A DNA stretch of 64,000 nt from a bacterium. Its GTDB lineage: Bacteria; Patescibacteriota; Minisyncoccia; Moranbacterales; GWC2-37-73. The stretch spans positions 105,846-169,845 of the forward strand of contig JBAXDL010000002.1 of assembly GCA_037140955.1 (NCBI GenBank), given 5' to 3'. The notes under the pieces were generated by a model, which was not told where the DNA came from, made no database searches, and saw only the letters and a list, made by a program, of their open reading frames with translations. The translations under genes were made by a program, and so were the position numbers. Positions within the stretch are counted from its first letter, which is position 1. Each line of letters starts with the position of its first letter. Of this stretch, positions 6,801 to 58,551 are shown one piece after another.

Positions 6801-9090
6801 CTGTCCCAGCCACCCCCCAATGCCGGCTCCTTGGCTCCACAGTAAGCCACATGTAATGATTAGCATCAACAGTTGAGCCAGCAATATTAACCCCATCGGT
6901 AAACACTGAACATTTATATGCCTCACCCTTTTCAACTATCCCAGTCGTAGTAATTACAGATAAAACAGTAGCCTGTGCGCCTGATGTTTGCCCAACTACA
7001 ACCTCACCTTGTTGAAAATAACCGGTAGTAGGATTTTCAGTTAAATATTTTTCATTTGCAGTTGCTGTGTTGTGCTCTTTTGTATAAGTTCCCTGATTTC
7101 CTGATGTTTGCCCTATTATAACTTCATCGGCAGTAAAAATACCTATTTGCCCACTAATCTTATACACACCTCGATTTGTCAAATTTCCACTTCTCCACCC
7201 CACCCAATTCTGCAATGTCGCAAAATCCATACCCACACCAGATCCAATTGATGAAACATGTACATAAACAGCACCCACATCATCAGCTCCAATATCCCAA
7301 GTTCCAGCTCTTATATCACCATCAATATCTGTCGATATTGGCAAATTTGCATCAGCCGATAAATCCACTCCAGCATTCTTGGCGACAGTGTCATTAAATT
7401 CCAAATGGAAGTCTTTATTTGCCGCATCGACAAATGCGACTGCTTTATTCCTAAGCGCAACATTTGGCGAGGTTGCATCGTCAGAAATATTGCCAGCAGA
7501 GGCAGCCGAAAATGTTCCAACATATTCAATGCCAGTTGTTCCATTGACAATATTATTCTTTAAAACTGGAGTAGAATTTGCAACAAAAAATCCACCACCC
7601 ACATTATACAAGGTGTTGTTGTAGATATATGCATTATTACTCGCATAAATACCATAATTACTTACAGTTGTAGTTTTCCAGTCGTATATTATGTTATTAG
7701 AAATTTTTACATTAATTCCAATCGGCGCCCTAGCATCAATACCAGCATTGTATTGACTACCACCAGCACAATTACTTGTTATGAGATTTGAATCAATTAT
7801 GATATCACCATTACTACCGGTTATAGCTTTTGCATTAATACCGTTTAAATAATCACGGTTGTTTCCTATTCTTTTTATCTGCAAACCAATGATTTTCACA
7901 TAATTTGTCGAGATATCAATAGTTCCTATGCCACCAGTATTAGAGGTATATTGAATACTATACTTCCCATCATCCCACTTTCCCCGATGCCTTTCTCCAA
8001 GTGGCACATTAATTTCCACATAATGCGTAGCATCAGTTGTCCAGCCAGCAATTGCAAGTGGTGTAGTGTCTGGTCCAACGTCATAATATGGCAAAGCCCT
8101 TTCCACAGCATTGCGCGCCACCAAATCTCCTTGCCTGCCAGCTTCCCAAGCAGCAAGGTCAGAGTACCATCTTCCTACTGAACCAACACCAGAAGCTGGC
8201 GAGCCACCATTGCCCTCTGAATCAATAACTAAAAGTCTAGGCGTTGTGTTTGAAGGATTGAGTGACAATACTTTCCAAGGTTTTCCAGTTGAATCAACAA
8301 ATTTATCATTCTTAAAAATTCTAGAAAGATTTGGTGTGCCAGAAAGAACCAATAGCCATGGTCCAGCTTGATTGACAGCTGTCACAGTCAGTGAAACATT
8401 AGCCAAATGACCAACGGTATATTCATTAACCGAAAGATCTTTGACAATTGAAAGAGAAGCTGAATTTCCCGTACCAAGTGTTTCTGTGTTAGTTTTTGTG
8501 CCAGCATTGAAATCAGCTTCAGTTGTTTGGGTCACTGCTTGTGTGATTTGTTGCAATTGCAAATCATTGCCACCATTTGCCAAGGCAATTCCGGCATCCT
8601 TGCTTTGAAATTCACTCCAAAGCGTTTGATTGGAATTGTGCACAGCAACATTAGCACTTTGTGTTGCCCAAGAAGTTTGTGCGAAATGAAAAGTTGCACT
8701 GTGAGTGATTCCTCCTGGAAAAAAAACTTGAATGGCAATTATTGCCAGGAAAATTGAAAAAGCAGTGGAAGAAAAACTGTAGGTGAAAAGTTTTACTTTT
8801 TTTTGATAATTCTTAAGATGAGAATATGAGTTAAAATTAAGATTAGACTGTGAATTTAGATTTTTTTCTGCTTTTATTTTCGCAATTCGAAGATGATTCT
8901 CTGCAGCTGATTTTGAAAGCAAGTGCCAATGATCTTGCAAAAAAACTGCAATTTTTTGAACTGAAAATGTTTTCTTGAAATTAAATCTATCCCAAAATTT
9001 TCTTTCAACATTAAGATCTTTTAATCTTGTTTTCACAGCCTCTTTTGCTGGTTCAATTTTTGGGTTTTTTTTAATTCTTTCCATGACCAA
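889..9090 (-). CDS. giant (2733 aa) cell-surface protein with N-terminal TM anchor, right-handed parallel beta-helix (pectin-lyase-like) repeats and multiple fibronectin-III/Ig-like domains
   Basis: Single 8.2 kb ORF. Hydrophobic segment near the N-terminus. Recurrent NNIIYN / NNxxYN beta-helix rungs and repeated WDIGADE-type motifs. Several FN3-like blocks (e.g. ITNVSISNITPTTAEITWTTDE...YNIKVKSRD). SD GAGAGGA 5 nt upstream of the ATG. Confidence 0.85.
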   Translation of the reverse strand: MVMERIKKNPKIEPAKEAVKTRLKDLNVERKFWDRFNFKKTFSVQKIAVFLQDHWHLLSKSAAENHLRIAKIKAEKNLNSQSNLNFNSYSHLKNYQKKVKLFTYSFSSTAFSIFLAIIAIQVFFPGGITHSATFHFAQTSWATQSANVAVHNSNQTLWSEFQSKDAGIALANGGNDLQLQQITQAVTQTTEADFNAGTKTNTETLGTGNSASLSIVKDLSVNEYTVGHLANVSLTVTAVNQAGPWLLVLSGTPNLSRIFKNDKFVDSTGKPWKVLSLNPSNTTPRLLVIDSEGNGGSPASGVGSVGRWYSDLAAWEAGRQGDLVARNAVERALPYYDVGPDTTPLAIAGWTTDATHYVEINVPLGERHRGKWDDGKYSIQYTSNTGGIGTIDISTNYVKIIGLQIKRIGNNRDYLNGINAKAITGSNGDIIIDSNLITSNCAGGSQYNAGIDARAPIGINVKISNNIIYDWKTTTVSNYGIYASNNAYIYNNTLYNVGGGFFVANSTPVLKNNIVNGTTGIEYVGTFSAASAGNISDDATSPNVALRNKAVAFVDAANKDFHLEFNDTVAKNAGVDLSADANLPISTDIDGDIRAGTWDIGADDVGAVYVHVSSIGSGVGMDFATLQNWVGWRSGNLTNRGVYKISGQIGIFTADEVIIGQTSGNQGTYTKEHNTATANEKYLTENPTTGYFQQGEVVVGQTSGAQATVLSVITTTGIVEKGEAYKCSVFTDGVNIAGSTVDANHYMWLTVEPRSRHWGVAGTGVIISPGAVASNIISVSNQYTIIDGFEITNWGTDDNQPRYAINIGFRGIVANNLIYNPRQGVSTRVYGIGMPADNSTENPVVYNNIIYNFTNSNIGWGINSGRYDNIYNNTVYNILGNSNFNYSIRLSGGNEIVYEKNNITANCTTGTCFTFLGGTRGDAYENNNISSDATAPGTNSKTNQTLADIKFVSTDSSLIDLHLMPGSVAKNAGADLSATFKTDIDGNHRLTGANSWDIGADEWQASSPIFKTSGIFESNSVDLGVKADISSITLNANTTAGTNIKTQIAVNNDNATWNYVDIGQNQSGIPIYYSVGQNTLDHKTGSPTISITSGVATFSVAQTATNMGVGDKITYNASSVVYIAGKISTTQWKVVTKLGAVPADVTSQTVNSIAHAFSSLSAAVTGASGANFLNTTDLVTNNYQLNLPCYYDTGADTTAVAVSGYTTGVNNFIKIYTPNNVSSEANQSQRHAGKWDNLKYSIRISFAAVFPMVINISNVVIDGLMLEYGFNQAYRGGILVDSASSLVQNVNVSDNIIRTLVNQSNSTGINLSAGGYGQMNVKIYNNIIYNFIGTGSFGIFNNSGSSNYIFNNSVYGSTTGFASNGAVLKNNIANGNVADYSGSFNVASVNNISQDATSPNIALRNKTVQFIDAANFDFHLSPSDTAAKNAGTNLSADVNFPFSADIDGQYRNDTWDIGADEEGAPSSLGANRYVKYKTSFTSDSTNTPSLNDITLGYTSYPAAASLISSSYNTTDNANIFAKLAWNQIVDANTAVTMQARTSADGNTWTSWMGPDGTSGTEFSDPTGATIMPTAISDGSNDKFIQYKAILHSDGTATPTLSDVQATYVVNAPPELQNVTGVQNTDGIVSISYDVRDQDTTTGNLNGFVNSTLQYCTANCSSNGSETWTNAVATSGSLGSVAVQEGSFSTYTATWNAKTDYNGVYNANMKIRIKVDDNEAANNLAYGISPIFILDTKNPANVSLTVDGSTKRLSIAVPADDSTYQMLVSNFADFHDATAESFAASKNWPTMTSDPSTVYLKVIDAKGNFATTSSTTPQKPKNMVYFDVSNSAAADFREFIAWSVISPAEVGTGFDSYQIERKEDTGSFANVGQQTDRLANFYMDNNLNTSILYSYRALTKDLAGNKSAFSDTVSDIPNGQGGTDTTPPTITNVSISNITPTTAEITWTTDELSDSIVGYSPDTSFLPEYGIGSMVMTHSVILSNLTPETSYNIKVKSRDPMNNLGQVEGLNPGSNAIGDFSFTTLAGPKISNVIITQVNNNDATISWKTDINADAKINYSETISGGVLINPQSLADNASGKNHQITLFGLLENTKYYFEVASKDSSNNETIDKNGGNFFELTTTQDSTAPVISNLTTAYVSKDAAVITFTTDESAKVKISYGKTSKNIVQNITTFDRSHGIFLSGLTPDKDYIYDIQVTDINGNVDTSAEQTFKTLKDAEFAHSPLSSIVFADPNPSILTDVAAVIAFSSDQAAKCFVEYGSSAGIYDAVPKSEDVFNVVHGIQLNGLLFNTKYFYKVTCKDNLDTTIFSGEKDFTTKEQLYTAAGAGALGDKTAPVLSNISVGSITGESATISWDSDEKASSNVGYGIINTDENGASDRTVNKDVANYSTKHSVLVSGLIPATKYIFVASSTDAVGNISQSSQSSFQTDAPSSLSSIKAQSTALGQAIITWQTSTETSSIVEYGLTTSYGEIKENKSQTTDHQIELSSLNQGITYHYRVKGKDVDGKYFSSSDQTFEPKSPAKITNISINDISEHGAIVSFRTDVPTDANVTYTDVRDSATTGSQGSRNLATEHKIELINLNQGTTFSISISAKDEQGTEATIKAQDLTTGKDENPPRIDNIKTDNALTQADKVQSIISWKTDEQSTSSILYKEGRNGEEKEMKISDNLTTNHVGVVTIFKAGTVYNFRVKSVDVSGNEGISNDFALLTPRRKENIIQIIIGNFTDIFGWAKF

Positions 9091-13016: not shown

Positions 13017-13062
13017 AAAAAAAGCATTGACTCTTGAAATACACACTATTTCAAGGAAAAAT

Positions 13063-13144
13063 GCCCAAGTGGTGGAATTGGTATACACGCACGACTCAAA
13101 ATCGTGTGGCGCAAGTCATAAGAGTTCGAGTCTCTTCTTGGGCA
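13063..13144 (+). tRNA. tRNA-Leu (anticodon CAA), class II with long variable arm
   Basis: Acceptor GCCCAAG/CTTGGGC. D-arm with GAATTGGTAT loop. Anticodon stem CACGA/TCGTG with loop CTCAAAA (anticodon CAA). Long variable arm. T-arm AGAG-TTCGAGT-CTCT. Discriminator A. Confidence 0.8.
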
Positions 13145-13153
13145 CCCAATCTT

Positions 13154-21577: not shown

Positions 21578-22018
21578 CTAATCGATCGTCACACCATGTC
21601 TGCTGTGGTGCTTTTTGGCAACACGAATACGCGCTGTTTCTTTTTCAATTGCAGCGGCAACTTTTGCATATTCCAGCTCATTCATTGAGATTTTTTGCTT
21701 GCTAATTTCTTGAGCGCGGTCCCTTGCCTGCTGGGCACGCTTCACATCAATTTCAACTGCAGCTTCAGCTGTGTCAGCAAGTACAACCAAAACATTGTCA
21801 TTAAACTCAATAAAACCACCAGAAACGACCAATAATTTTTCCTTGCCACCAACTTTAAACATAATCTCACCAGCCTTGAGGCCAGCAATATATGAACAAT
21901 GATCGGGCATGATGGTCACTTCCCCATCAGCAACAGGCAAAGTTATTTGCTCTACCTCCTTTTCAAGCACGGTGCGTTCAGGAGTAACAATCTTAAAATT
22001 AATTTTACTTGTAGACAT
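21578..22018 (-). CDS. atpC: F1 ATP synthase epsilon subunit
   Basis: MSTSKINFKIVTPERTVLEKEV... is a typical epsilon N-terminal beta-sandwich plus C-terminal helices. The ATG is at 22018. The upstream ORF-track extension is unsupported. Confidence 0.85.
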   Translation of the reverse strand: MSTSKINFKIVTPERTVLEKEVEQITLPVADGEVTIMPDHCSYIAGLKAGEIMFKVGGKEKLLVVSGGFIEFNDNVLVVLADTAEAAVEIDVKRAQQARDRAQEISKQKISMNELEYAKVAAAIEKETARIRVAKKHHSRHGVTID

Positions 22019-22184
22019 AATATTAATTTCAAATCCAAATATCAAAATCTCAATTTCAAATAAATGACTCAAATCCAAATATCAAAATTTAGATTTTAAA
22101 ATTTTGGATTTTATTTGAAATTTTGATTTTAGATTTTAGATTTAAAAACAAATTTAAACAATAAATACTTTTAGGAATGTTAAT

Positions 22185-23567
<1,383 letters not shown>

Positions 23568-23608
23568 TTAATTAGAATAATTATACCTATTTAAAAGATT
23601 CTTATAAT

Positions 23609-23722
23609 TTCGAATTTCCAATTTCTAATTTTGAATCAATACTTAATTTCCAAATTTCTAATGTTTCAAACATTCACTCATTCGGACTTGATTCAAAATT
23701 CAAAATTCGAAATTCAAAATTG
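23609..23722. repeat. AT-rich atp-spacer repeat family, copy 1 (TCGAATTTCCAATTTCTAATTTTGAATCAAT...AATTTCTAATG...TTCAAAATTCGAAATTCAAAATT)
   Basis: Shares long near-identical stretches with 27838-27976 and 29971-30084. Confidence 0.6.
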
Positions 23723-23786
23723 TCTTCAAACTTCCCATCTGTCTACACCTTTCTTGAACCATAAACAGAATCAGAACTTCAAACTA

Positions 23787-23815
23787 TTGACAAAATGATG
23801 ATTTAGGTGTATTAT
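23787..23815 (+). promoter_or_regulatory. near-consensus sigma-70 promoter TTGACA-N17-TATTAT
   Basis: -35 at 23787-23792, -10 at 23810-23815. Drives the small plus-strand ORF at 23875. Confidence 0.5.
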
Positions 23816-23874
23816 ATATGGTTGATGATTCATTGAATCATTACAACAAAATTCTAACACAAAAGGAGTTAGAC

Positions 23875-24045
23875 ATGGAAAAGTTGAAAATTTTTGAAGG
23901 AAAGATCTCCAACCTAGAAACAGATGTCAACACCTGGTTATCTGAAAATCCAGATATCAAGATAATTGAAAGGAAATTTTCCACAGAAGTTGATCAGTCA
24001 TTCACAAGCAGGTTTGTATATGTAGCAATATTTTATACAAACTAA
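23875..24045 (+). CDS. small hypothetical protein (56 aa), antisense-oriented inside the atp operon
   Basis: ATG at 23875 preceded by AAGGAG at 6-nt spacing. The ORF-track start at 23818 overlaps the promoter -10 and is less likely. No recognisable family. Confidence 0.5.
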   Translation: MEKLKIFEGKISNLETDVNTWLSENPDIKIIERKFSTEVDQSFTSRFVYVAIFYTN

Positions 24046-24061
24046 TCAAAGAGTTATCCAG

Positions 24062-24102
24062 CCACCCTTTCGCAAGATTCTTTGCGATGGGTGGTTTTTT
24101 TT
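24062..24102 (+). terminator. intrinsic terminator
   Basis: Stem CCACCC..TTTCGCAA / TTGCGA..GGGTGG followed by T8. Confidence 0.6.
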
Positions 24103-24133
24103 ATGCGCCTATTTTTTCAAAGATACTATCAGA

Positions 24134-24173
24134 GTTCAATCCTGGATTCCTGATCAAGTCAGGAATGACAAGG
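24134..24173 (+). repeat. hairpin repeat family copy A (GTTCAATCCTGGATTCC-[CTGATCAAGTCAG]-GGAATGACAAGG)
   Basis: Conserved flanks shared with 27387-27425 and, in reverse complement, 27305-27340. The inner stem differs but stays self-complementary. Confidence 0.7.
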
Positions 24174-24195
24174 TTTTGAATTCTGAATTATATTT

Positions 24196-24224
24196 TTGAC
24201 TTTATTATTGTTCACTGATATATT
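24196..24224 (+). promoter_or_regulatory. sigma-70-like promoter TTGACT-N17-TATATT
   Basis: -35 at 24196-24201, -10 at 24219-24224. About 155-nt leader before the ORF at 24386. Confidence 0.45.
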
Positions 24225-24385
24225 TCATTTACGATTTTAAATTCGATAAGGAGGTTTTTTGTTTGAAACATTTTTGTTCTTTTTTTTGAAACACTGTCCA
24301 CCATTTTGCAACCTCATCACAATCGATTGAATTTGTATGACATTGTTCATGCAAAATAAAATCAAAAGACAAAGGAGAAACAAAA

Positions 24386-24559
24386 ATGAGAAAACTGTTT
24401 TTTGCAATCATTGCCATCATCATTTCAATCACCCCAGCCATTGCACATGAAATTGGCATGCAGCACGACCATCATGACAATTGGGAAACAGTCTCTGTTT
24501 TTGCCATTATTGCCTTGATAATTCTCGGCAGAGTAATTTACAAAAAAATGGAAAAATAA
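24386..24559 (+). CDS. small His-rich membrane/secreted protein (57 aa), not in the ORF track
   Basis: ATG at 24386 with AAGGAG 8 nt upstream. Sequence MRKLFFAIIAIIISITPAIA-HEIGMQHDHHDNWE-TVSVFAIIALIILGRVIYKKMEK (signal/TM, His-rich stretch, C-terminal TM). Followed by a strong terminator. Confidence 0.5.
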   Translation: MRKLFFAIIAIIISITPAIAHEIGMQHDHHDNWETVSVFAIIALIILGRVIYKKMEK

Positions 24560-24586
24560 AATACAATTCCAAACATCTCTACTATT

Positions 24587-24622
24587 GCGCCCACACAAAT
24601 CATTGTGTTGGGCGCGTTTTTT
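24587..24622 (+). terminator. intrinsic terminator
   Basis: GC-rich stem GCGCCCACACAA/TTGTGTTGGGCGC followed by GTTTTTT. Confidence 0.65.
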
Positions 24623-24659
24623 AATTTTCAAAAGTACTTATTTTCTACGAATTACAAAT

Positions 24660-25619
24660 TTATTCCAATGCTGCTCGTCCTGCAGAAATCTCAGCAATTT
24701 CCTGGGTAATCTTTCCTTGTCTGATCTGATTGTATGCCAAGGTCAAATCGTCGCTCATTTCTTTTGCCGCATCAGTTGCATTTCTCATGGCCATCATGCG
24801 AGCTGATTGCTCAGATGCTTGCGATTCAAGCACGCCATGGAAAAGCTGCATCTCAATCAAACGTGGAATAATAAATTCCAAAACCTCACTTGCACTTGGC
24901 TCAATCTTGTATTCAACTACTGGCTCCTCTAATCCATATTCTTTGGCAATAACATCCATTTCAGCAATTTGTTTTTCAATATCAATCTTGGAAATTGGCA
25001 ACACTTGGCGAATGCGAGTTTGCTGATTTACTGCTGAAATATAATCAGTATAAATCATCACAACTTTGTCATATTTTTTTGCCAAATAATCATCCATCAC
25101 AATTTTCGAAAGAGGTTTGATGTCGACAACTGTTGCAAACTTTCCACCATCTGGAAAAGCAGCAATAATTTCTTTTTGCATTTTCCTGACAATATTTCCA
25201 CCCTTTTTTCCAACCACAATAAAATCAACTTTCAAGTCTTCATTCTTAATCTTAGACTCAATTTTCTTTTTTCCAATTCTGTTTATTTTCAATTTTTCAG
25301 GATGCAAGATTTCTTCCTTTATTTTCTTGGCAACTTGCGTATTGAATGATCCACAAAGACCACGATTGGAAGTTATTGCAATCATCAAAACACTTTTCAC
25401 TTCACGCACCTCCAAAAATCCATAATTTTCTGATGACTCAAATGCCCTAGCAAGATTGGTTAGCACACTCCAAGCAGCATGAGCATAGGCCCTAATCCCA
25501 AGCACGCTTGCAACAGCTCTGCGCATTTTGGCAGCAGAAACCATCTCCATTGCTTTGGTGATTTTTCTTGTGCTATTTATCGACCGAATGCGTCGTTTTA
25601 TATCTAGTGAACTGGCCAT
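24660..25619 (-). CDS. atpG: F1 ATP synthase gamma subunit
   Basis: Full-length gamma similarity (MASSLDIKRRIRSINSTRKITKAMEMVSAAKMRRA...). Confidence 0.9.
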   Translation of the reverse strand: MASSLDIKRRIRSINSTRKITKAMEMVSAAKMRRAVASVLGIRAYAHAAWSVLTNLARAFESSENYGFLEVREVKSVLMIAITSNRGLCGSFNTQVAKKIKEEILHPEKLKINRIGKKKIESKIKNEDLKVDFIVVGKKGGNIVRKMQKEIIAAFPDGGKFATVVDIKPLSKIVMDDYLAKKYDKVVMIYTDYISAVNQQTRIRQVLPISKIDIEKQIAEMDVIAKEYGLEEPVVEYKIEPSASEVLEFIIPRLIEMQLFHGVLESQASEQSARMMAMRNATDAAKEMSDDLTLAYNQIRQGKITQEIAEISAGRAALE

Positions 25620-25656
25620 AGTATTTAATATTTTCTGAATTTATCCAGATTCCAAT

Positions 25657-25691
25657 TTTAAATTTTAAGTTTTAAATTTTAAATTAATTTT
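25657..25691. repeat. 36-nt AT-rich spacer repeat (TTTTAAATTTTAAGTTTTAAATTTTAAATTAATTTT), copy 1
   Basis: Exact repeat of 28485-28520. Both lie in atp intercistronic spacers. Confidence 0.7.
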
Positions 25692-25748
25692 CAAATATTT
25701 AAATATTTTTTATATTCTATTTAAAATTTTTAATTTAAAATTCTGCGT

Positions 25749-27257
25749 TTACGCGGTCTGATATATTTCTTTAAATTCCTTTATTGCCTTTTCCAATGCT
25801 GCCACAACCTCATCTGACAATTCTTTCTTTTCACCAATAAGTGTGATCAAATCTTTTGCATTTGAATCTAGATATTTGTGAAAATCAGCTTCCCAACTTC
25901 TGATGTTTTCAACTTCCACATCATCAACAAAACCATTGGTAAGAGCATACAAAATTGCAACTTGATGCTCAACAATCATTGGCTCATATTGCCCTTGCTT
26001 CAAAATCTCAACTGACCTTCTTCCTCTTTCGATTTGATTTCTGGTTTTTTCATCAAGATCAGATCCAAATTGCGCAAAAGCTTCCAATTCGCGAAATTGT
26101 GCCAATTCAAGTCTCATTTTTCCAGCCACTTTTTTCATGGCCTTGATTTGAGCAGATCCACCCACACGAGAAACAGAGAGACCAACATTCACAGCAGGAC
26201 GAATACCCTTGTAAAACAAATCTGATTCCAAGAAAATTTGACCATCAGTAATAGAAATAACATTGGTTGGGATGTAAGCTGAAACATCACCCGCCTGTGT
26301 TTCAATAATTGGAAGTGCTGTCATTGAGCCGCCCCCAAAATCAGCGTTTAATTTTGCACTTCTTTCCAAAAGACGAGAATGCAAATAAAAAACATCTCCA
26401 GGATATGCTTCGCGTCCTGGTGGTCGCTTCAAGATCAAGGAAATTTGACGATATGCCCAAGCGTGACGAGAAAGATCATCAAAAACAATTAGCACATCCT
26501 CTCCCTTGTCCATGAAATATTCTCCCAGCGCGCAACCTGAATATGGAGAAATATAGGAAAGAGCTGAAGATTCTGAAGCACCTGCAACCACAATGGTGGT
26601 ATATTCCATGGCTCCACGCTTTTCAAGCTCACCCAAAATTCTGGCAATCTTTGATTCTTTTTGTCCAATTGCAACATAAATGCATTTCATGTTTTGGCCT
26701 TTTTGATTGATGATAGTGTCAATTGCAATCGCTGTTTTTCCAGTTTGACGATCACCAATAATAAGCTCGCGTTGTCCTCGTCCAATTGGAATCATCGCAT
26801 CAATTGCTTTTATGCCAGTTTGCACAGGCTGATGAACTGACTTACGAGTAATCACGCCCGGTGCAATTTTTTCCACTGGATAAAATTTGTCAGCCACAAT
26901 ATCACCCTTTCCATCAACTGGAATTCCCAAAGGGTTGATCACGCGTCCAATCATAGCATCAGAAACTGGAATAGAGAGAACATTGCCGGTTGCCTTCACA
27001 ACATCTCCTTCTTTGATTCCAATATAATTTCCAAGCACAATGACACCAACTCGATCCTCTTCAAGATTAAGTGCTACACCGATTTCTCCATTAGGAAATT
27101 CAACCATTTCTGATGCCATCAAATCTGAAAGTCCTGAAACGCGAGCAACTCCATCGCCAATTTCAATAACGCTGCCAACCTTTTCAGTAGTGGTTTCGGT
27201 TCTGAATCCTTCAATCTGCTTTTTGAGTTGTTCTATTATGTAGTCCTTGTTAGCCAT
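25749..27257 (-). CDS. atpA: F1 ATP synthase alpha subunit
   Basis: Walker A GDRQTGKT. Full-length alpha similarity. Confidence 0.95.
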
Positions 27258-27304
27258 ATTATTGATTCTACTAATTACAAATTATTACAAATTTACAAAT
27301 GTTT

Positions 27305-27340
27305 CGTGTCATTCCGGGCTCGACCCGGAATCCAGGATTA
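27305..27340 (-). repeat. hairpin repeat family copy C (reverse orientation; inner stem GGGCTCGACCC)
   Basis: Reverse complement reads AATCCTGGATTCC-GGGTCGAGCCC-GGAATGACACG. Forms an inverted pair with copy B 36 nt away. Confidence 0.7.
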
Positions 27341-27386
27341 GCACATCTCACCTTTTATTAAAAAAATCTTTATTTTATAGCCTAAG

Positions 27387-27425
27387 TTCAAATCCTGGAT
27401 TCCCGCCTCCGCGGGAATGACAAGG
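27387..27425 (+). repeat. hairpin repeat family copy B (inner stem CGCCTCCGCG)
   Basis: GTTCAAATCCTGGATTCC-CGCCTCCGCG-GGAATGACAAGG. Abuts the atpH stop codon at 27426. Confidence 0.7.
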
Positions 27426-27827
27426 TTATTTTTCTAAAACTTTTTTTAATTTCCTGAGCTGCCCTGCCACACTTCCATCGATCACTTCGTCGCCTACTCT
27501 TATTATTATTCCGCCATGAATTCTTTCATTTATGATACTTGTAATTTTAACTTTTTCAGCCTTATACTTTAATTTGATAAAATTTTCAATTTCTTTGTAT
27601 TTTGCATCTTGTATTTTGTATTTTGTGACTACTTCAGCCAAAACAATTCCATGTGCTGCATTATATAGTTCTGCAAATTTTTCCATAACCCTCTCTGCAT
27701 TCTTGAGTTGCCCATCATTTTTGAGCTGCTCGGCGAATTTCTTCACAATCACCAAAACTTCCTGCTCAGATTTTCCATCTGTCAGATCAAAAAGTGTTTG
27801 AGAATATTGTTTGATACTAACTTTCAT
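27426..27827 (-). CDS. atpH: F1 ATP synthase delta subunit (short form)
   Basis: Position between atpF and atpA. C-terminal IDGSVAGQLRKL is typical of delta/OSCP. Confidence 0.75.
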   Translation of the reverse strand: MKVSIKQYSQTLFDLTDGKSEQEVLVIVKKFAEQLKNDGQLKNAERVMEKFAELYNAAHGIVLAEVVTKYKIQDAKYKEIENFIKLKYKAEKVKITSIINERIHGGIIIRVGDEVIDGSVAGQLRKLKKVLEK

Positions 27828-27837
27828 AAGTTTAATT

Positions 27838-27976
27838 TTGAATTTCCAATTTCGAATTTTGAATCAATCATTAATTAATGAATTTCTAATGCTTTAAACG
27901 TTCTGTCATTCTGATTTCATTTGAAATTTTTGCTCCAAGCTTATCCTTTGGGGACAAAATTCAGACTTCGAAATTC
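27838..27976. repeat. AT-rich atp-spacer repeat family, copy 2
   Basis: TTGAATTTCCAATTTCGAATTTTGAATCAATCATTAATTAATGAATTTCTAATGCTTTAAACGTT ... TTCAGACTTCGAAATT. Shares long blocks with 23609-23722 and 29971-30084. Confidence 0.6.
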
Positions 27977-28468
27977 CTATTCATTTATCACTTTTTCTAT
28001 AACACTCTTATCTTTTTCTAAATCTAATTTTGTATCAATAATCTTACTCGTTGCAGCAATGACTAGTTCGGCGATTTGCCCTTTCACTTCCTGCATCATC
28101 TGATTCTTTTCAAGTTCAATTTTCTTGGCAGAATCTGACAGAATTTTTTCAGCTTGATTCTTCGCTTCTCCAATAATTTCTTCTTTATTCTTCACTGCCA
28201 CTGCTTCAGCATTAGCCACAATTTCTTGGGCTGCCTTTCGGGCCTCAATCAAAACAGTCTTTTCCTTTTCTTCAATTTCCAAAAGCTTCTTGCCAGCATT
28301 TTGGGCATTCTCAATGCCCTTTTCAATCTTCTCACTTCTCTCAGTCATCAATTTTAGCATTGGACCATAGGCAAATTTCTTGAGTACAAAAAAAACAATT
28401 GCAAAGTTTACCAATTGCGCAAGAATAAGTTTGATGTCGATGTGAAATGTTTTGATAAGTTCTTCCAT
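27977..28468 (-). CDS. atpF: Fo ATP synthase subunit b
   Basis: Single N-terminal TM helix followed by a long charged helix. Position in the operon. Confidence 0.85.
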   Translation of the reverse strand: MEELIKTFHIDIKLILAQLVNFAIVFFVLKKFAYGPMLKLMTERSEKIEKGIENAQNAGKKLLEIEEKEKTVLIEARKAAQEIVANAEAVAVKNKEEIIGEAKNQAEKILSDSAKKIELEKNQMMQEVKGQIAELVIAATSKIIDTKLDLEKDKSVIEKVINE

Positions 28469-28484
28469 AATTTTAATGCTCCAG

Positions 28485-28520
28485 TTTTAAATTTTAAGTT
28501 TTAAATTTTAAATTAATTTT
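28485..28520. repeat. 36-nt AT-rich spacer repeat, copy 2
   Basis: Identical to 25657-25691. Confidence 0.7.
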
Positions 28521-28641
28521 AAATTATCAAATGTTTAAAATTTAAGCATTTTGATTTGATTTAAAACTTATAATTTAAAATTTAAAATTATTTTTCAAAT
28601 AATCTCATTTTGCCTCACTCCGAAGAATGAGACATTTGAAA

Positions 28642-28902
<261 letters not shown>

Positions 28903-29093
28903 TTAGGGAGAATGGATATTGTCAACAAATTATTAATTAATTTTTAATTCACAATTTTTAATTTTTAAATAATTTCTCAATTCATAAATGATTTCCCTCA
29001 AAGGATAAACTTGAAGCAAAAAACATTTGAAAATTTTGATTTATTTGTAAAAATTAAAAATTTAAAATTAAAAATTCCAATACTTTGCATTGT

Positions 29094-29933
29094 CTAGTGT
29101 TCCTCATTGGTCGTGGCAATTGACATAAATGCCAGCGTCAAAATTGCAAAAACCAAAGCTTGCACAATTCCCACAATCAATTCCAAAAACATAAACGGCA
29201 ATGGCAAAATAAAAGCGGAAATCGCCATCATCGACGCCAGCAAAACCTCTCCAGCAAAAATGTTTCCAAAAAGTCGCAGCGACAGTGATGCAATTTTTGC
29301 AATCTCTCCCACAATCTCAATAAGTCCCACAAAGATCTTAATTGGATTTACCATCAAAATAGTTGGGTCTTTTTTTATTTTCTTGGGAATTGCCAAAATA
29401 GCTTTCAGATTAACAAACTTGTTGAAATGATTCCAGCCGCCAATCATAATGACTCCAAAAATATGCGAAATGACAACTGAAAAAAGTGCAATCGCAAGAG
29501 TGGTGTTAAGATCTGCTGTGGCACCGCGAAGCAGTGGCACAAAAACTTTTCCGTGCTCACCTGTTTCCACAAAACCTATTGTTCCAACTCCAGGAAGAAG
29601 CCCCATCCAATTACTAACCAAAATAAAAAGGAAAAGCGCCAAAACAATTGGCAAAAATTTCAAGGTTTTTTTGCGACCACCGGTAACACTGTCAGCCATC
29701 ACAAGTGCTTGCTCAAGAATTATTTCAAAAATATTTTGCAAAGCTGACATCTTTTTTGTTTTCTTTGCAGCCTTTTTTCCAACCATCACAAAAAAAGTCA
29801 CCAAAATAATCACCGTGATCCAACTCATGATCAAGGAATTGGTGATAGTAAAAGTTCCTAGATGCAAAATAGGCTCAGCGAAAAGAGTGCTTTCATGTTG
29901 TATTTCTGAATTGTTTGTATTTTCAGTAGACAT
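29094..29933 (-). CDS. atpB: Fo ATP synthase subunit a
   Basis: LSLRLFGNIFAGE motif with the essential Arg. Polytopic. Confidence 0.9.
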   Translation of the reverse strand: MSTENTNNSEIQHESTLFAEPILHLGTFTITNSLIMSWITVIILVTFFVMVGKKAAKKTKKMSALQNIFEIILEQALVMADSVTGGRKKTLKFLPIVLALFLFILVSNWMGLLPGVGTIGFVETGEHGKVFVPLLRGATADLNTTLAIALFSVVISHIFGVIMIGGWNHFNKFVNLKAILAIPKKIKKDPTILMVNPIKIFVGLIEIVGEIAKIASLSLRLFGNIFAGEVLLASMMAISAFILPLPFMFLELIVGIVQALVFAILTLAFMSIATTNEEH

Positions 29934-29970
29934 CTTTGTAAATTAAAATCTGTAAAATGTTCACTACTCA

Positions 29971-30084
29971 AATTTCGAATTTCCAATTTTGAATTTTGAA
30001 TGAATTTCCAATGATTGAATTTTGAATGTTTCAAGCATTGCATCATTAAGATTTTATTCGAAATTCAAAATTCAGACTTCGAAA
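29971..30084. repeat. AT-rich atp-spacer repeat family, copy 3
   Basis: AATTTCGAATTTCCAATTTTGAATTTTGAATGAATTTCCAATG...TTCGAAATTCAAAATTCAGACTTCGAAATT. Confidence 0.6.
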
Positions 30085-30327
30085 TTATTTACTATTACCA
30101 TTATCCATTTCTCTCAGCCCAATTCTTATTATCATTACTATGGAGACAGCAAAGGCCGCTGCCACGCTAAACAAAAATGCCCAGGGAGTTGTTTGAAATG
30201 TTTTGTCTAGATATTTTCCAATCAAGACAGCAATCAAGACCGGTCCGACAATCCAAGAGCTTAGCCTCAAAAAAAGGATTGCTCCGGGTTGCCACCAACT
30301 CACGTTTTTATTTTGCTTATCCTCCAT
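30085..30327 (-). CDS. atpZ: AtpZ/AtpI-family small membrane protein preceding atpB
   Basis: 80 aa, two TM helices. Pattern WWQPGAILFLRLSSWIVGPVLIAVLIGKYLDKTFQTTPW resembles the ATPase_gene1 family. First gene of the operon. Confidence 0.55.
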   Translation of the reverse strand: MEDKQNKNVSWWQPGAILFLRLSSWIVGPVLIAVLIGKYLDKTFQTTPWAFLFSVAAAFAVSIVMIIRIGLREMDNGNSK

Positions 30328-34140: not shown

Positions 34141-35577
34141 TTATTTTATTCTTTGAAAAAGTGGCTGCACAATTCTTGTTTCAAGTGCAAGTTTTATTTT
34201 CTCGGAAGTTTCTGGCATAAAAGGAAGCAAGAGAGTTGCAATAATCTCCAAATCTAAAAGCAATTTCTGCATCACTTCTTTGAATTTTTCTTCATCATTT
34301 TTTGCCAACTCCCAAGGTTTATTATCCTCAATAAACTTGTTTGATTCCTTGACCAGTCCATTGATATATTCCAATGCACCATCGAAGTTGAATTCATTTA
34401 TGAAATTTAAAATTTTATCATTGGAAATTGATTGGGAATTGGAAATTGGAAATTGGAAATTATCTTGTGAAGCGAGTTTGATAACTCGCGAAACAAGATT
34501 CCCCAAACCATTTGCCAAATCAGCGTTGAATTTTTCGCTCATGCGTTCCATTGTCAAATCCAAATCATCTCCAAATGTTCCACCAGAGAGCAAAAGATAG
34601 CGCGTGCCATCCACTCCGAATTTTTCAAGCATTTGGTCGATGCCAATCACGTTGCCAAGAGTTTTGCTCATTTTTTTGCCACCAGAAAGAATGTGCCCAT
34701 GAATAAAAAAACTTTTAGGAAGATCGATTTCCAAATTCAAAAGAGTGGCAGCCCAAATTGTGCCATGCACACGTAAAATGTCCTTACCGAGCATTTGAAC
34801 ATCAGCGGGCCAAAACTTCAGCTTTTTGCTTTTAGCTTTTAGCTTTTCAGTTTCTCCATCCCAAACAAGACCGGTTATATAATTCAAAAATGCATCAATC
34901 CAAACATAGGTCGTGTGCTGCGAGTCAAAAGGAAGTGGAATTCCCCATTTCAAATTTTTGCGTGAAATTGAGACGTCTTCCAATTTTTCATTTTCCAAAA
35001 ATGACAAAATTTCTTTTTTGTATCGCTCTGGTTGAATTTTAAATTCATCTGATTTTATTCTGGAAATCAAAGTTTCCTGCCATTTGTTCATCTTCATCAA
35101 ATAACACTCTTCTTCCATCTCTTCTGGGGCAGCATTATGATCAGGACATTTTCCATCTACCAATTCATTTTCACTTTTGAATTGTTCACATCCAACGCAA
35201 TAAAGTCCCTTGTATGATCCCTTATAAATCGAACCATTGTCATGCAAAGTTTGCAAAACTTTTTGTACAGCCAACTTGTGAGCAGGCATTGTGGTGCGAA
35301 TGAAGCCATCATTGCTGATATTCAATGCTCGCCAAAGATCTTGAAAAATTTGTGCAAACCCATCCACGAATTTTTGAGGCTCAATCCCATCTTCCTTTGC
35401 CTTCTTTTCAATCTTGGCACCATGCTCATCAGTTCCAGTTAGAAAAAAGGTTTCCTTGCCCTGCAAACGATTGGCGCGCGCCAAAACATCACAAGCAATG
35501 GTGGTGTAGGCGTGGCCTATGTGCGGCTTGGCATTGGTATAATATATCGGCGTTGTAATGTAAAATTTATCTTTCAT
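34141..35577 (-). CDS. metG: methionyl-tRNA synthetase (core enzyme, no C-terminal appended domain)
   Basis: HIGH motif (PHIGHAY), KMSKS motif (KMSKT), a CxxC...CxxH zinc knuckle and an anticodon-binding helical domain. Confidence 0.9.
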   Translation of the reverse strand: MKDKFYITTPIYYTNAKPHIGHAYTTIACDVLARANRLQGKETFFLTGTDEHGAKIEKKAKEDGIEPQKFVDGFAQIFQDLWRALNISNDGFIRTTMPAHKLAVQKVLQTLHDNGSIYKGSYKGLYCVGCEQFKSENELVDGKCPDHNAAPEEMEEECYLMKMNKWQETLISRIKSDEFKIQPERYKKEILSFLENEKLEDVSISRKNLKWGIPLPFDSQHTTYVWIDAFLNYITGLVWDGETEKLKAKSKKLKFWPADVQMLGKDILRVHGTIWAATLLNLEIDLPKSFFIHGHILSGGKKMSKTLGNVIGIDQMLEKFGVDGTRYLLLSGGTFGDDLDLTMERMSEKFNADLANGLGNLVSRVIKLASQDNFQFPISNSQSISNDKILNFINEFNFDGALEYINGLVKESNKFIEDNKPWELAKNDEEKFKEVMQKLLLDLEIIATLLLPFMPETSEKIKLALETRIVQPLFQRIK

Positions 35578-40280: not shown

Positions 40281-40379
40281 CTCAAAAAATTGCCATTGGT
40301 CTTTTCGTCTAATTTTGTAGAGTTGTTCAAATTTGCTATGTGGCAATTAAGTAACTCTTAACTGCTAACCATAAAAATT

Positions 40380-43440
<3,061 letters not shown>

Positions 43441-44079
43441 TTTCTTTATTTAACGGTTAGCAGTTAACAATCACTTATATAGGACCACTCCTATAATATT
43501 TAATCTTGCGATTAAAAAATTATTAACGCTTATTGAACAAACATTTCAAACTCTATGAAATCGTTTTTGATGTGATATGGCACAGCATGCACCATATGCA
43601 CGACCTACTTATTTTTGACTAATTGTGATGGCTGCGCCCAACATGTCTTTCCGCTAAATCAAAACATGTTACACGTATTCACAATAGACCATAATTGTTA
43701 AGCTACTAATAATGCGGAAAATTCTCACTAGGTTTTAACTATTAGCTTCTAGCTTTTAGCAAAATCCAATATTTGTTTTCAGCACTAATTTTTAAACAAA
43801 ATAAAATTCACTTGGTAGTGAATTTTCGAGGCATCGCAAAAGAGGTCCCGAACTCACCCATTAAATTTTTGTCTGACATTTCTCAAATGTTTGTGAAATA
43901 TTTTTTAGACGTAAATTCATAATAGCAGAATCAAAAGATGTGTCAAGCTTTTTAGTATGACTTATTTTTTATTTTTTTATTTATCTTGTTTTGTGCCTTA
44001 TTTAAAGCAAAAAAATAATCAATTAATACGAAAAAATACTGAACATTTTTCAGTCTAAATAGCAATTATTTAATGCATA

Positions 44080-58387: not shown

Positions 58388-58551
58388 TAAATAATTTCAA
58401 AATCCAAAAATCAAATACCAAATCAAATCCAAGTCTCAAGATAAAAAAATTTAAAAATATTATGCCCTATTTTTTAATTTGAAATTTGGATTTTGAAATT
58501 TGAAATTAATTTATCATTTGGATTTTGAAATTTGGATTTACCTATATGTTC

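What the first reader, a model, noticed from the sequence alone, without database searches (positions are those of the whole stretch)
27305..27425. Inverted pair of hairpin repeats with compensatory inner stems between atpH and atpA
Copy B (27387-27425) reads GTTCAAATCCTGGATTCC-CGCCTCCGCG-GGAATGACAAGG and starts right at the atpH stop. Copy C (27305-27340) is the same element in reverse orientation with a different but still self-complementary inner stem (GGGTCGAGCCC). On the atp mRNA the two can pair with each other through the conserved flanks (13 + 9 bp), and each can also fold locally. That gives a large cruciform or three-way junction in the atpH-atpA intercistronic region. A third copy (24134-24173) has yet another self-complementary inner stem (CTGATCAAGTCAG). 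Conserved flanks with covarying stems point to selection on structure. The element is probably a structured RNA, a protein-binding hairpin, or a small mobile hairpin element.
Basis: seen in the sequence. Interest (0 to 1): 0.6.

Follow-up and report, generated by a model that had tools for sequence, protein, structure and literature searches.

The report
Ssn-type DNA hairpin repeats in atp spacers
The three hairpin repeats are real, but they are copies of a widespread, already described bacterial DNA repeat (the Neisseria NTS/dRS3 or "Ssn-related motif" family, cut as single-stranded DNA by small GIY-YIG nucleases), here sitting as a small mobile inverted pair inside the ATP synthase gene cluster of a Moranbacteria-like (CPR) bacterium.

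Summary
There are exactly three copies of AATCCTGGATTCC-[3 bp + loop + 3 bp]-GGAATGACA in the window: an inverted pair between atpH and atpA, and a solo copy between atpG and atpD. Each forms an 8-bp hairpin whose three inner pairs covary.

The element is not atp-specific and not tRNA-derived. The same flanks occur in at least 120 genome loci from many phyla. Of 129 distinct copies, 117 keep three Watson-Crick inner pairs, using many different triplets.

It matches the NTS/dRS3/SRM repeat family (Chenal et al. 2025). These hairpins are bound and cut only as single-stranded DNA by about 95-aa GIY-YIG "Ssn" nucleases. Copy B is the Neisseria 28-mer with two substitutions. All three copies keep the GTC and C shown to matter for cleavage and binding.

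In other genomes the identical motif brackets Ssn-like genes. The gene-less inverted pair seen here recurs in Moranbacteria-like genomes at unrelated sites. One is an in-frame insertion in folC. It is absent from the atpH-atpA spacer of relatives, so it behaves as a mobile, MITE-like unit.

No Ssn gene lies within about 73 kb. An RNA role in the atp mRNA is possible but unsupported.

Verdict: new member of a known kind, modest interest.

The parts
27386..27425 (-). Copy B. On the minus strand it reads CCTTGTCATTCC-CGC-GGAG-GCG-GGAATCCAGGATTTGAAC. Core is 27392-27422. Stem is 27399-27406 with 27411-27418, loop 27407-27410. It begins directly after the atpH stop codon.
   Evidence: Sequence. Exact pattern match. 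Equals the NTS 28-mer with 2 substitutions and contains a perfect dRS3 ATTCCC-N8-GGGAAT. Covariance-model hit of 52.7 bits on the minus strand. DNA hairpin of about -9.5 kcal/mol.
27305..27340 (+). Copy C. On the plus strand it reads CGTGTCATTCC-GGG-CTCGA-CCC-GGAATCCAGGATTA. Core is 27307-27338. Stem is 27311-27318 with 27324-27331, loop 27319-27323. This is the 5-nt-loop (CTYGA) hairpin type.
   Evidence: Covariance-model hit of 46.6 bits on the plus strand. DNA hairpin of -9.7 kcal/mol.
27305..27425 (.). Inverted pair (C then B, GTCA ends pointing outward) with an AT-rich 53-nt spacer (27339-27391). It is a gene-less, MITE-like unit in the atpH-atpA spacer and is transcribed within the atp cluster.
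   Evidence: The same architecture (CTYGA hairpin + TTAGCACA + AT-rich spacer + 4-nt-loop hairpin + GACAAGG, 115-121 nt) is seen in 6 further distinct pairs from Moranbacteria-like genomes and metagenomes. It is absent from the orthologous spacer in L123-L127. Its orientation is the same as in NTS-ssn-NTS units. A sub-threshold, full-length match to Rfam WsnRNA46, which has the same doublet layout, covers 27290-27444 on the minus strand.
24134..24173 (-). Copy A (solo). On the minus strand it reads CCTTGTCATTCC-TGA-CTTGA-TCA-GGAATCCAGGATTGAAC. Core is 24139-24170. Stem is 24146-24153 with 24159-24166, loop 24154-24158. It lies in the 1.1-kb gap between atpG and atpD, just after the terminator hairpin of a small opposite-strand gene.
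   Evidence: Covariance-model hit of 48.2 bits. Sixty nt including the copy are 87% identical to a degenerate solo copy in the atpB-atpE spacer of relatives.
21578..30327 (-). Context: the F-type ATP synthase cluster on the minus strand. Genes are atpI-like 30085-30327, atpB 29094-29933, atpE 28642-28863, atpF 27977-28468, atpH 27426-27827, atpA 25749-27257, atpG 24660-25619, atpD 22185-23558 and atpC 21578-22078.
   Evidence: Pfam assignments.

Best explanation
The three elements are copies of the NTS/dRS3/SRM family of hairpin repeats.

**How the family works (shown in Neisseria by others).** The strand that reads GTCATTCC...GGAATCC folds, as single-stranded DNA, into an 8-bp hairpin. A roughly 95-aa single-domain GIY-YIG nuclease (Ssn) recognises it through the stem sequence, the GTC just 5' of the stem and the C just 3' of it. 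The enzyme then cuts a few bases upstream. In Neisseria this trims incoming or exposed single-stranded DNA and lowers transformation by repeat-bearing DNA.

**The pair between atpH and atpA (inferred).** It is a gene-less miniature of the 'repeat-ssn gene-inverted repeat' unit found in other genomes. It has moved as a unit within Moranbacteria-like genomes. Here it is most likely a passenger in the atp spacers. It is co-transcribed and its RNA will also fold, but nothing indicates it was selected for an atp function.

**Shown here:** family identity, structural covariation, conservation across phyla, bracketing of Ssn-like genes elsewhere, and gain/insertion behaviour.

**Inferred, not shown:** that a cognate Ssn exists in this genome and acts on these copies, and that Ssn rather than some other enzyme mobilises them.
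For: **Family identity**
- Copy B equals the published NTS consensus CGTCATTCCCGCGMAVGCGGGAATCYRG with 2 substitutions and contains a perfect dRS3 (consensus from PMC11893778).
- All three copies keep GTC 5' of the palindrome and C 3' of it. [quoted passage not shown]

**Distribution and structure**
- The exact flanks occur in at least 120 loci from many phyla, 36 of them with CPR names.
- The inner stems covary strongly.
- Non-Watson-Crick cells are mostly G.T on the GTCATTCC strand (9 against 2). That is the strand SsnA cuts.

**Link to Ssn-like genes**
- Single-domain GIY-YIG genes of 94-99 aa (Pfam PF01541, E = 1e-17) sit between a forward and an inverted copy in L064 (twice), L094, L045 and L065. 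A decayed one does so in L055.
- That protein family is very large and named from many CPR lineages.

**Mobility of the pair**
- Pairs with GTCA ends outward outnumber the opposite arrangement 33 to 8.
- The window-type pair recurs at non-atp loci.
- In L113 it is a roughly 44-aa in-frame insertion in folC relative to PDB 1o5z.
- Relatives with 72-73% identical AtpH have no copy in the atpH-atpA spacer.
Against: - No Ssn-like or any GIY-YIG ORF is found in the 64-kb window or in 9 kb beyond its left end. None is found in 83 kb around nine other Moranbacteria-type pairs.
- The paper's strict SRM search pattern matches none of the three copies.
- The loops (GGAG, CTTGA, CTCGA on the GTCATTCC strand) and inner stems differ from the Neisseria consensus. 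The paper shows SsnA recognition depends on sequence as well as structure, so any acting enzyme would need its own matched specificity.
- No nuclease of this family has been shown to transpose anything.
- The nearest relatives available are distant, so there is no clean filled-versus-empty site comparison at the atp locus itself.
Confidence: 0.75

Rival explanations
1. A cis-acting RNA structure of the atp mRNA. The inverted pair folds into a three-way junction between atpH and atpA and tunes the stability, processing or translation of the flanking cistrons, as REP/BIME hairpins do in some E. coli operons.
For: - The pair lies within the atp gene cluster on the transcribed strand and starts at the atpH stop.
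- The predicted RNA fold is -47.1 kcal/mol, z = -3.4.
- Repeats of this family are transcribed elsewhere. Rfam's Wolbachia WsnRNA46 has the same doublet layout, and Francisella FtrB contains one copy.
Against: - Any inverted repeat gives such a fold.
- Relatives lack the element at this junction.
- The same pair occurs at unrelated loci and inside a coding sequence.
- There is no orientation bias relative to transcription (29:21).
- Partners in a pair usually differ in their inner stems, so the long-range pairing is not what is conserved.
- The pair ends 48 nt before the atpA start, so it does not cover the atpA translation start.
- The Rfam scores are far below the gathering thresholds (22.5 against 65.3; 19.2 against 66).
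Confidence: 0.1
2. A REP/REPIN-type element mobilised by a RAYT (Y1 HUH transposase) rather than by a GIY-YIG nuclease.
For: The anatomy is REPIN-like: a short conserved 5' motif followed by a hairpin, with copies mostly in inverted pairs.
Against: - Wherever a gene is bracketed by a forward and an inverted copy at 300-400 nt spacing in the fetched loci, it is a GIY-YIG gene, not a Y1 transposase.
- No transposase appeared among the Pfam annotations obtained across the window.
- The sequence equals the experimentally defined Ssn target.
Confidence: 0.05
3. A recombination or integration target. The repeats would serve as attachment sites for a phage or an IS110-type recombinase, as reported for Neisseria dRS3.
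For: [quoted passage not shown]
- Copy B contains a perfect dRS3.
Against: - No integrase, IS110-type or phage genes lie next to any of the three copies.
- Only 11 exact-motif hits were found in 2.9 million viral contigs.
- This was not tested further.
Confidence: 0.05
4. A tRNA-derived fragment (T-loop plus acceptor) or a chance resemblance.
For: GTTCAA(A)TCC in copies A and B looks like a T-loop.
Against: - Copy C has GTGCTAATCC there, and the position varies freely among 132 other copies.
- ARAGORN and Rfam find no tRNA at these sites.
- Chance is excluded by the shuffles.
Confidence: 0.01

Closest known systems
Neisseria NTS / dRS3 repeats and the broader 'Ssn-related motifs' (SRM), targets of SsnA GIY-YIG ssDNA nucleases (Chenal et al., Nat Commun 2025, PMC11893778)
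   Same: - Same sequence frame: (C/T)GTCATTCC-stem-loop-stem-GGAATCCAG.
- Copy B differs from the 28-mer at 2 positions.
- The GTC and C contact positions are kept.
- The hairpin has a defined orientation, is multi-copy and mostly intergenic.
- In other genomes the identical motif brackets Ssn-like genes in the same repeat-gene-inverted repeat layout.
   Different: - The host is a Moranbacteria-like CPR bacterium. The paper's text names no CPR lineage.
- Two of the three copies have a 5-nt CTYGA loop and non-consensus inner stems.
- None matches the authors' strict SRM pattern.
- No ssn gene was seen nearby.
- The fixed heterotypic inverted pair of about 117 nt that inserts as a unit is not mentioned in the passages of the paper's main text that I read or searched.
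REP / REPIN elements and their RAYT transposases (enterobacteria, Pseudomonas)
   Same: Short hairpin repeats with a conserved 5' motif. They are mostly arranged as inverted pairs, scattered in intergenic spacers including within operons. The presumed mobilising gene is itself flanked by the repeats.
   Different: The associated gene is a GIY-YIG nuclease, not a Y1/HUH transposase. REP sequences are lineage-specific, whereas this motif is nearly identical across phyla.
Rickettsia palindromic elements (RPE) (from my own knowledge: Ogata et al. 2000)
   Same: A small palindromic repeat that can insert in-frame into protein-coding genes, as seen for the pair in folC of L113. The Ssn paper lists Rickettsia among SRM-rich genomes.
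   Different: In this window the copies are intergenic. Sequence relatedness to RPE families was not tested.
Rfam RF02625 WsnRNA46 (Wolbachia) and RF02748 FtrB (Francisella) small RNAs
   Same: WsnRNA46's consensus is an inverted pair of GTCAT...GGATCCAG hairpin repeats with a spacer of about 60 nt, modelled as one long hairpin. It aligns end to end with 27290-27444. FtrB contains GUCAUUCCCGCGUAGGCGGGAAUC.
   Different: Scores are far below the gathering thresholds, so these are not family members. Those entries describe transcripts, while the shared part is the DNA repeat.

Membership tests
NTS / dRS3 / SRM hairpin repeats (Ssn targets) | dRS3 core ATTCCC-N8-GGGAAT | tested here: met
   Copy B reads ATTCCC-GCCTCCGC-GGGAAT at 27399-27418. 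Copies A and C have ATTCCT and ATTCCG with 9-nt centres, so they do not meet it.
NTS / dRS3 / SRM hairpin repeats (Ssn targets) | NTS 28-mer CGTCATTCCCGCGMAVGCGGGAATCYRG with at most 1 mismatch (the authors' search criterion) | tested here: not met
   Copy B has 2 substitutions: the first C is T, and loop M is G. Copies A and C differ more.
NTS / dRS3 / SRM hairpin repeats (Ssn targets) | Authors' degenerate SRM pattern HGTCWYN(0-2)YYVSBRHN(0-5)WNVSBRGN(0-2)RNCYNB | tested here: not met
   A regex on both strands of the window gave no match. My reading: copy B fails at one loop position and copy C in the register of the 3' stem arm. The pattern was hand-made from 29 genomes.
NTS / dRS3 / SRM hairpin repeats (Ssn targets) | Oriented hairpin with GTC immediately 5' of the palindrome (cleavage) and C immediately 3' (binding) | tested here: met
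   All three copies read TGTC-ATTCC...GGAAT-C on one strand. The importance of these bases comes from PMC11893778. The hairpins fold as DNA at -8.6 to -10 kcal/mol.
NTS / dRS3 / SRM hairpin repeats (Ssn targets) | Repeated in the genome well above chance | tested here: inconclusive
   Three copies in 64 kb against 0 in shuffles. None in a further 9 kb. The rest of the genome could not be read.
NTS / dRS3 / SRM hairpin repeats (Ssn targets) | Spatial association with an ssn gene (single-domain GIY-YIG, cd10448) | tested here: inconclusive
   Not met in this window. Met for the identical motif in L064 (twice), L094, L045, L065 and L055. Assignment to cd10448 itself could not be checked because no CDD tool was available. 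Size and the spacing of the Tyr/Tyr/Glu residues (Y10, Y21, E68 against the paper's Y6, Y17, E64) agree; that comparison is my reading.
NTS / dRS3 / SRM hairpin repeats (Ssn targets) | Bound and cut by the cognate Ssn as single-stranded DNA only | not testable with these tools
   Needs a biochemical assay.
REP/REPIN with RAYT | A Y1 (HUH) transposase gene flanked by the repeats | tested here: not met
   The genes bracketed by the repeats are GIY-YIG. No transposase appeared among the annotated window genes. A full Pfam scan of every ORF was not done.
Rfam WsnRNA46 (RF02625) / FtrB (RF02748) | Score at or above the family gathering threshold | tested here: not met
   22.5 bits against 65.3, and 19.2 bits against 66.
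tRNA-derived element | tRNA-like T-arm/acceptor recognised by tRNA models and conserved among copies | tested here: not met
   ARAGORN and Rfam find the only tRNA at 13062-13148. The GTTCAA flank is not conserved among copies.
Intrinsic terminator | GC-rich hairpin followed by a T-run on the transcribed strand | tested here: not met
   No terminator-like site at the three copies. No T-run follows the hairpins on the atp sense strand.

The most novel reading that the evidence does not exclude
The roughly 117-nt heterotypic inverted pair (one CTYGA-loop hairpin plus one GNRA-like-loop hairpin) is a non-autonomous element. It would be mobilised in trans by an Ssn-type GIY-YIG single-strand nuclease in CPR bacteria. 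That would make 'repeat-ssn-repeat' units a new kind of transposable element driven by a GIY-YIG enzyme, possibly tied to the DNA-uptake-dependent lifestyle of these small-genome bacteria.
Probability: 0.2. Interest if true: 0.7.

Novelty: new member of a known kind. Interest (0 to 1): 0.3.

Why it matters
It resolves the finding. What looked like a possible new structured RNA in the atp operon is a copy of a repeat family whose protein partner and single-stranded-DNA mode of action were published in 2025.

The modest added value has three parts:
- The family, with nearly identical recognition flanks, extends into CPR/Patescibacteria.
- In Moranbacteria-like genomes the repeats travel as a fixed two-hairpin unit. 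That unit lands in operon spacers and, in one case, in-frame inside folC.
- This gives concrete material for testing whether Ssn nucleases mobilise their own repeats, an idea the original paper only raised.

For annotation, such copies should not be called small RNAs or short 'LDSRLRGND'-type ORFs.

Tried and rejected
- **Rfam:** at gathering thresholds there is nothing at the sites. At relaxed thresholds there are only sub-threshold hits to two small-RNA families that happen to contain the repeat.
- **tRNA origin:** rejected.
- **Terminator:** rejected.
- **L037:** two pairs flank a 1.1-kb segment. Its ORFs show no GIY-YIG motif, so it is not an autonomous unit.
- **Ssn gene in this genome:** a regex and an HMM built from four adjacent GIY-YIG proteins found nothing in the window or in L128.
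- **Walking further along the source contig:** not possible, because only window-encoded proteins may be looked up. Two look-ups failed outright.
- **Clean empty-site comparison at atpH-atpA:** the closest available relatives share only 72-73% AtpH identity, and their spacers are unalignable.
- **Small opposite-strand genes next to copy A and next to its counterpart in L126:** I compared only the window's second small gene (24386-24559) with the L126 gene, and they are not similar. The gene directly adjacent to copy A (23875-24045) was not compared, because that call failed on my coordinates.
- **Paper supplements:** those listing taxa and SRM counts are not held.
- **Metagenome scan for the Moranbacteria-type pair:** nine loci, none with an Ssn-like ORF.
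- **Viral scan:** only 11 hits, not followed up.

Full report
**1. What is in the sequence**

The three copies exist as described. Copy A is at 24134-24173. Copy C is at 27305-27340 on the other strand.

All three share AATCCTGGATTCC and GGAATGACA. Between these flanks each has a different, self-complementary insert. The real stem is 8 bp: ATTCC/GGAAT plus three variable pairs (TGA/TCA, CGC/GCG, GGG/CCC). Loops are 4-5 nt.

The pattern occurs three times in the window and never in 100 shuffles. A covariance model built from copies in other genomes finds only these three sites, at 46.6-52.7 bits.

**2. Gene context**

The ATP synthase cluster runs on the minus strand in the order atpI-like, atpB, atpE, atpF, atpH, atpA, atpG, atpD, atpC.

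- The inverted pair fills most of the 168-nt atpH-atpA spacer. Copy B touches the atpH stop codon.
- Copy A is also inside the cluster, in a 1.1-kb gap between atpG and atpD. That gap holds two small opposite-strand genes, each followed by a hairpin plus T-run that I read as a terminator (the consensus scan did not list them).

AtpH's closest named relatives are Candidatus Moranbacteria and Parcubacteria MAGs at 66-73% identity. The host is therefore a CPR/Patescibacteria bacterium.

**3. The element is not local**

The loci come from:
- Pseudomonadota, Nitrospirota, Planctomycetota, Desulfobacterota, Bdellovibrionota and Chloroflexota;
- 36 loci with CPR names.

- Of 129 distinct copies, 117 have three Watson-Crick closing pairs. 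They use more than 18 different triplets. Shuffled controls gave a mean of 24.6 and a maximum of 38.
- On 49 distinct sequences, 99% of cells pair. There are 49 double-sided changes against 9.7 expected, and 0 of 500 shuffles reach that.
- Non-canonical cells are mostly G.T when read on the GTCATTCC strand (9 against 2). This is a weak hint that this strand is the one that folds.
- On that strand the loops are GNAR tetraloops or CTTGA.

**4. Identity**

A literature search for the core sequence found Chenal et al. 2025 (PMC11893778). Their Neisseria Transformation Sequence, CGTCATTCCCGCGMAVGCGGGAATCYRG, contains the older dRS3 repeat ATTCCC-N8-GGGAAT.

The paper reports the following:
- The motif is bound and cut by SsnA, a 94-aa single-domain GIY-YIG nuclease.
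- SsnA acts only on single-stranded DNA and only on one strand. It does not act on dsDNA or RNA.
- Cleavage depends mainly on the three bases 5' of the palindrome. Binding depends most on the C just 3' of it.
- Related 'SRM' motifs flank ssn homologues across phyla.

Comparison with the window:
- Copy B is the NTS with two substitutions and contains a perfect dRS3.
- All three copies keep GTC and the 3' C.
- The authors' strict SRM pattern matches none of the three. Their one-mismatch NTS criterion is missed by one base.
- I therefore file these as divergent members, not canonical ones.

**5. Link to the nuclease, tested here**

In the fetched loci the identical motif brackets small GIY-YIG genes (Pfam PF01541, E = 1e-17). 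A forward copy ends 8-10 nt before the start codon, and an inverted copy follows the stop. This is seen in:
- L064 (twice), L094 and L045;
- L065, a Gracilibacteria locus read with genetic code 25, which has four tandem forward copies upstream;
- L055 (Yonathbacteria), where the gene has decayed.

The spacing of the two tyrosines and the glutamate (Y10, Y21, E68 in L064) equals that of the residues mutated in SsnA (Y6, Y17, E64). That comparison is my reading.

The protein family is very large: 7971 clusters at E of 1e-8 or better among 8000 scored. Many are named from CPR lineages (the query was the L055 pseudogene with its stops repaired by me).

None of this family is encoded in the window, in 9 kb beyond its left edge, or near nine other Moranbacteria-type pairs.

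**6. The inverted pair is a unit, and it moves**

- Across the loci, pairs with the GTCA ends outward outnumber the reverse arrangement 33 to 8. This is the orientation found around ssn genes.
- Partners usually differ in their inner stems (34 of 38 pairs). They often combine one 4-nt-loop hairpin with one CTTGA-loop hairpin. Each hairpin, rather than the long-range pairing, is what is kept.
- The window's pair has this layout: CTYGA hairpin, TTAGCACA, an AT-rich spacer of about 55 nt, 4-nt-loop hairpin, GACAAGG. The same layout, 115-121 nt long, recurs in six further distinct pairs from Moranbacteria-like genomes and metagenomes. None of the three genome loci tested (L017, L088, L113) lies next to atp genes.
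- In L113 the pair sits in-frame inside folC. Residues 251-300 of that protein correspond to only six residues of the Thermotoga enzyme 1o5z.
- Five loci from relatives (three distinct spacer sequences; AtpH 72-73% identical) have no copy in the atpH-atpA spacer.
- Copy A shares 60 nt at 87% identity with a degenerate solo copy in a different atp spacer (atpB-atpE) of those relatives.

Together these results show gain and relocation. They do not show which enzyme is responsible.

**7. The RNA reading**

Rfam's Wolbachia WsnRNA46 model, itself an inverted pair of such repeats, aligns end to end with 27290-27444. Its score is only 22.5 bits against a threshold of 65.3. Francisella FtrB contains one copy.

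So such repeats do get transcribed. Several results argue against a dedicated atp-mRNA function:
- the pair is absent from relatives' atpH-atpA spacers;
- it is present at unrelated sites and inside a coding sequence;
- a crude orientation test gave 29:21 relative to transcription;
- SsnA does not bind RNA.

A side effect on mRNA stability cannot be excluded.

**8. Verdict**

The best explanation is a divergent set of NTS/SRM-type single-stranded-DNA hairpin repeats, including a MITE-like inverted pair, carried as passengers in the atp spacers of a Moranbacteria-like genome.

This is a new member of a known kind. The open and more interesting question is whether Ssn-type nucleases mobilise these gene-less pairs.

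Noticed in passing
window 22018-22156, 23604-23721, 25654-25742, 27831-27890, 28485-28587, 29971-30086; also 34405-34466 and 58386-58540: Most other spacers of the atp cluster carry an AT-rich inverted pair of short tandem repeats (AATTTCGAATTT-type units) that can form a long hairpin. Relatives have the same kind of feature at orthologous spacers but with different unit sequences (L123 2903-3029, L126 2903-2991). The atpH-atpA spacer is the exception: it holds the NTS-type pair plus a one-sided ATTTGTAA repeat.
   Followed up: no
window 23559-24659: The atp cluster is interrupted between atpG and atpD by two small opposite-strand genes (23875-24045 and 24386-24559). Each is followed by a hairpin plus T-run that I read as a terminator (24062-24103, 24588-24625). 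Neither has a Pfam match.
   Followed up: partly
L113 2488-3954 (Ca. Moraniibacteriota UBA12142): The same two-hairpin unit is inserted in-frame in folC. It adds about 44 residues (…VIPGLTRNPG…LDSCLRRNDKG…) where Thermotoga FolC (1o5z) has six. This resembles the in-frame insertions of Rickettsia palindromic elements.
   Followed up: yes
L124/L126 962-1021; L127 989-1048: A degenerate solo copy (GGAATTTAGGATT instead of GGAATCCAGGATT) lies in the atpB-atpE spacer of relatives. It is 87% identical over 60 nt to window copy A with its flanks. There too it sits next to a small opposite-strand gene. I compared that gene only with the window's second small gene (24386-24559), and they are not similar; the gene directly adjacent to copy A was not compared.
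   Followed up: partly
L065 5000-5526; L080 4125-4333; L040 686-933; L054 852-6570: Other arrangements of the repeat. L065 (Gracilibacteria) has four tandem forward copies upstream of an Ssn-like gene. L080 has a tandem array with a 59-60-nt period and L040 one with a 106-nt period. One Bdellovibrionales contig (L054) has four inverted pairs within 8 kb.
   Followed up: no
L122 (Logan SRR7053542 contig), end of contig: A short-read contig carrying the identical atpH ends exactly inside copy B, at …GGGAATCCAG. This is as expected if the repeat breaks the assembly graph, and it hints at further copies in that population.
   Followed up: no
window 40379-43445; L128 20965-22053 (about 2 kb beyond window position 1): The 23S rRNA match spans 3067 nt against a 2925-nt model, so it probably carries an insertion. 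There is no 16S in the window. A DprA (DNA-processing, transformation) gene lies just left of the window.
   Followed up: no
window 889-9084, 53384-58387, 58552-63981: Very large repeat proteins: a 2731-aa protein with weak fn3 matches, and FG-GAP-repeat proteins of 1667 aa and at least 1809 aa. These account for the large direct-repeat families in the repeat scan.
   Followed up: no
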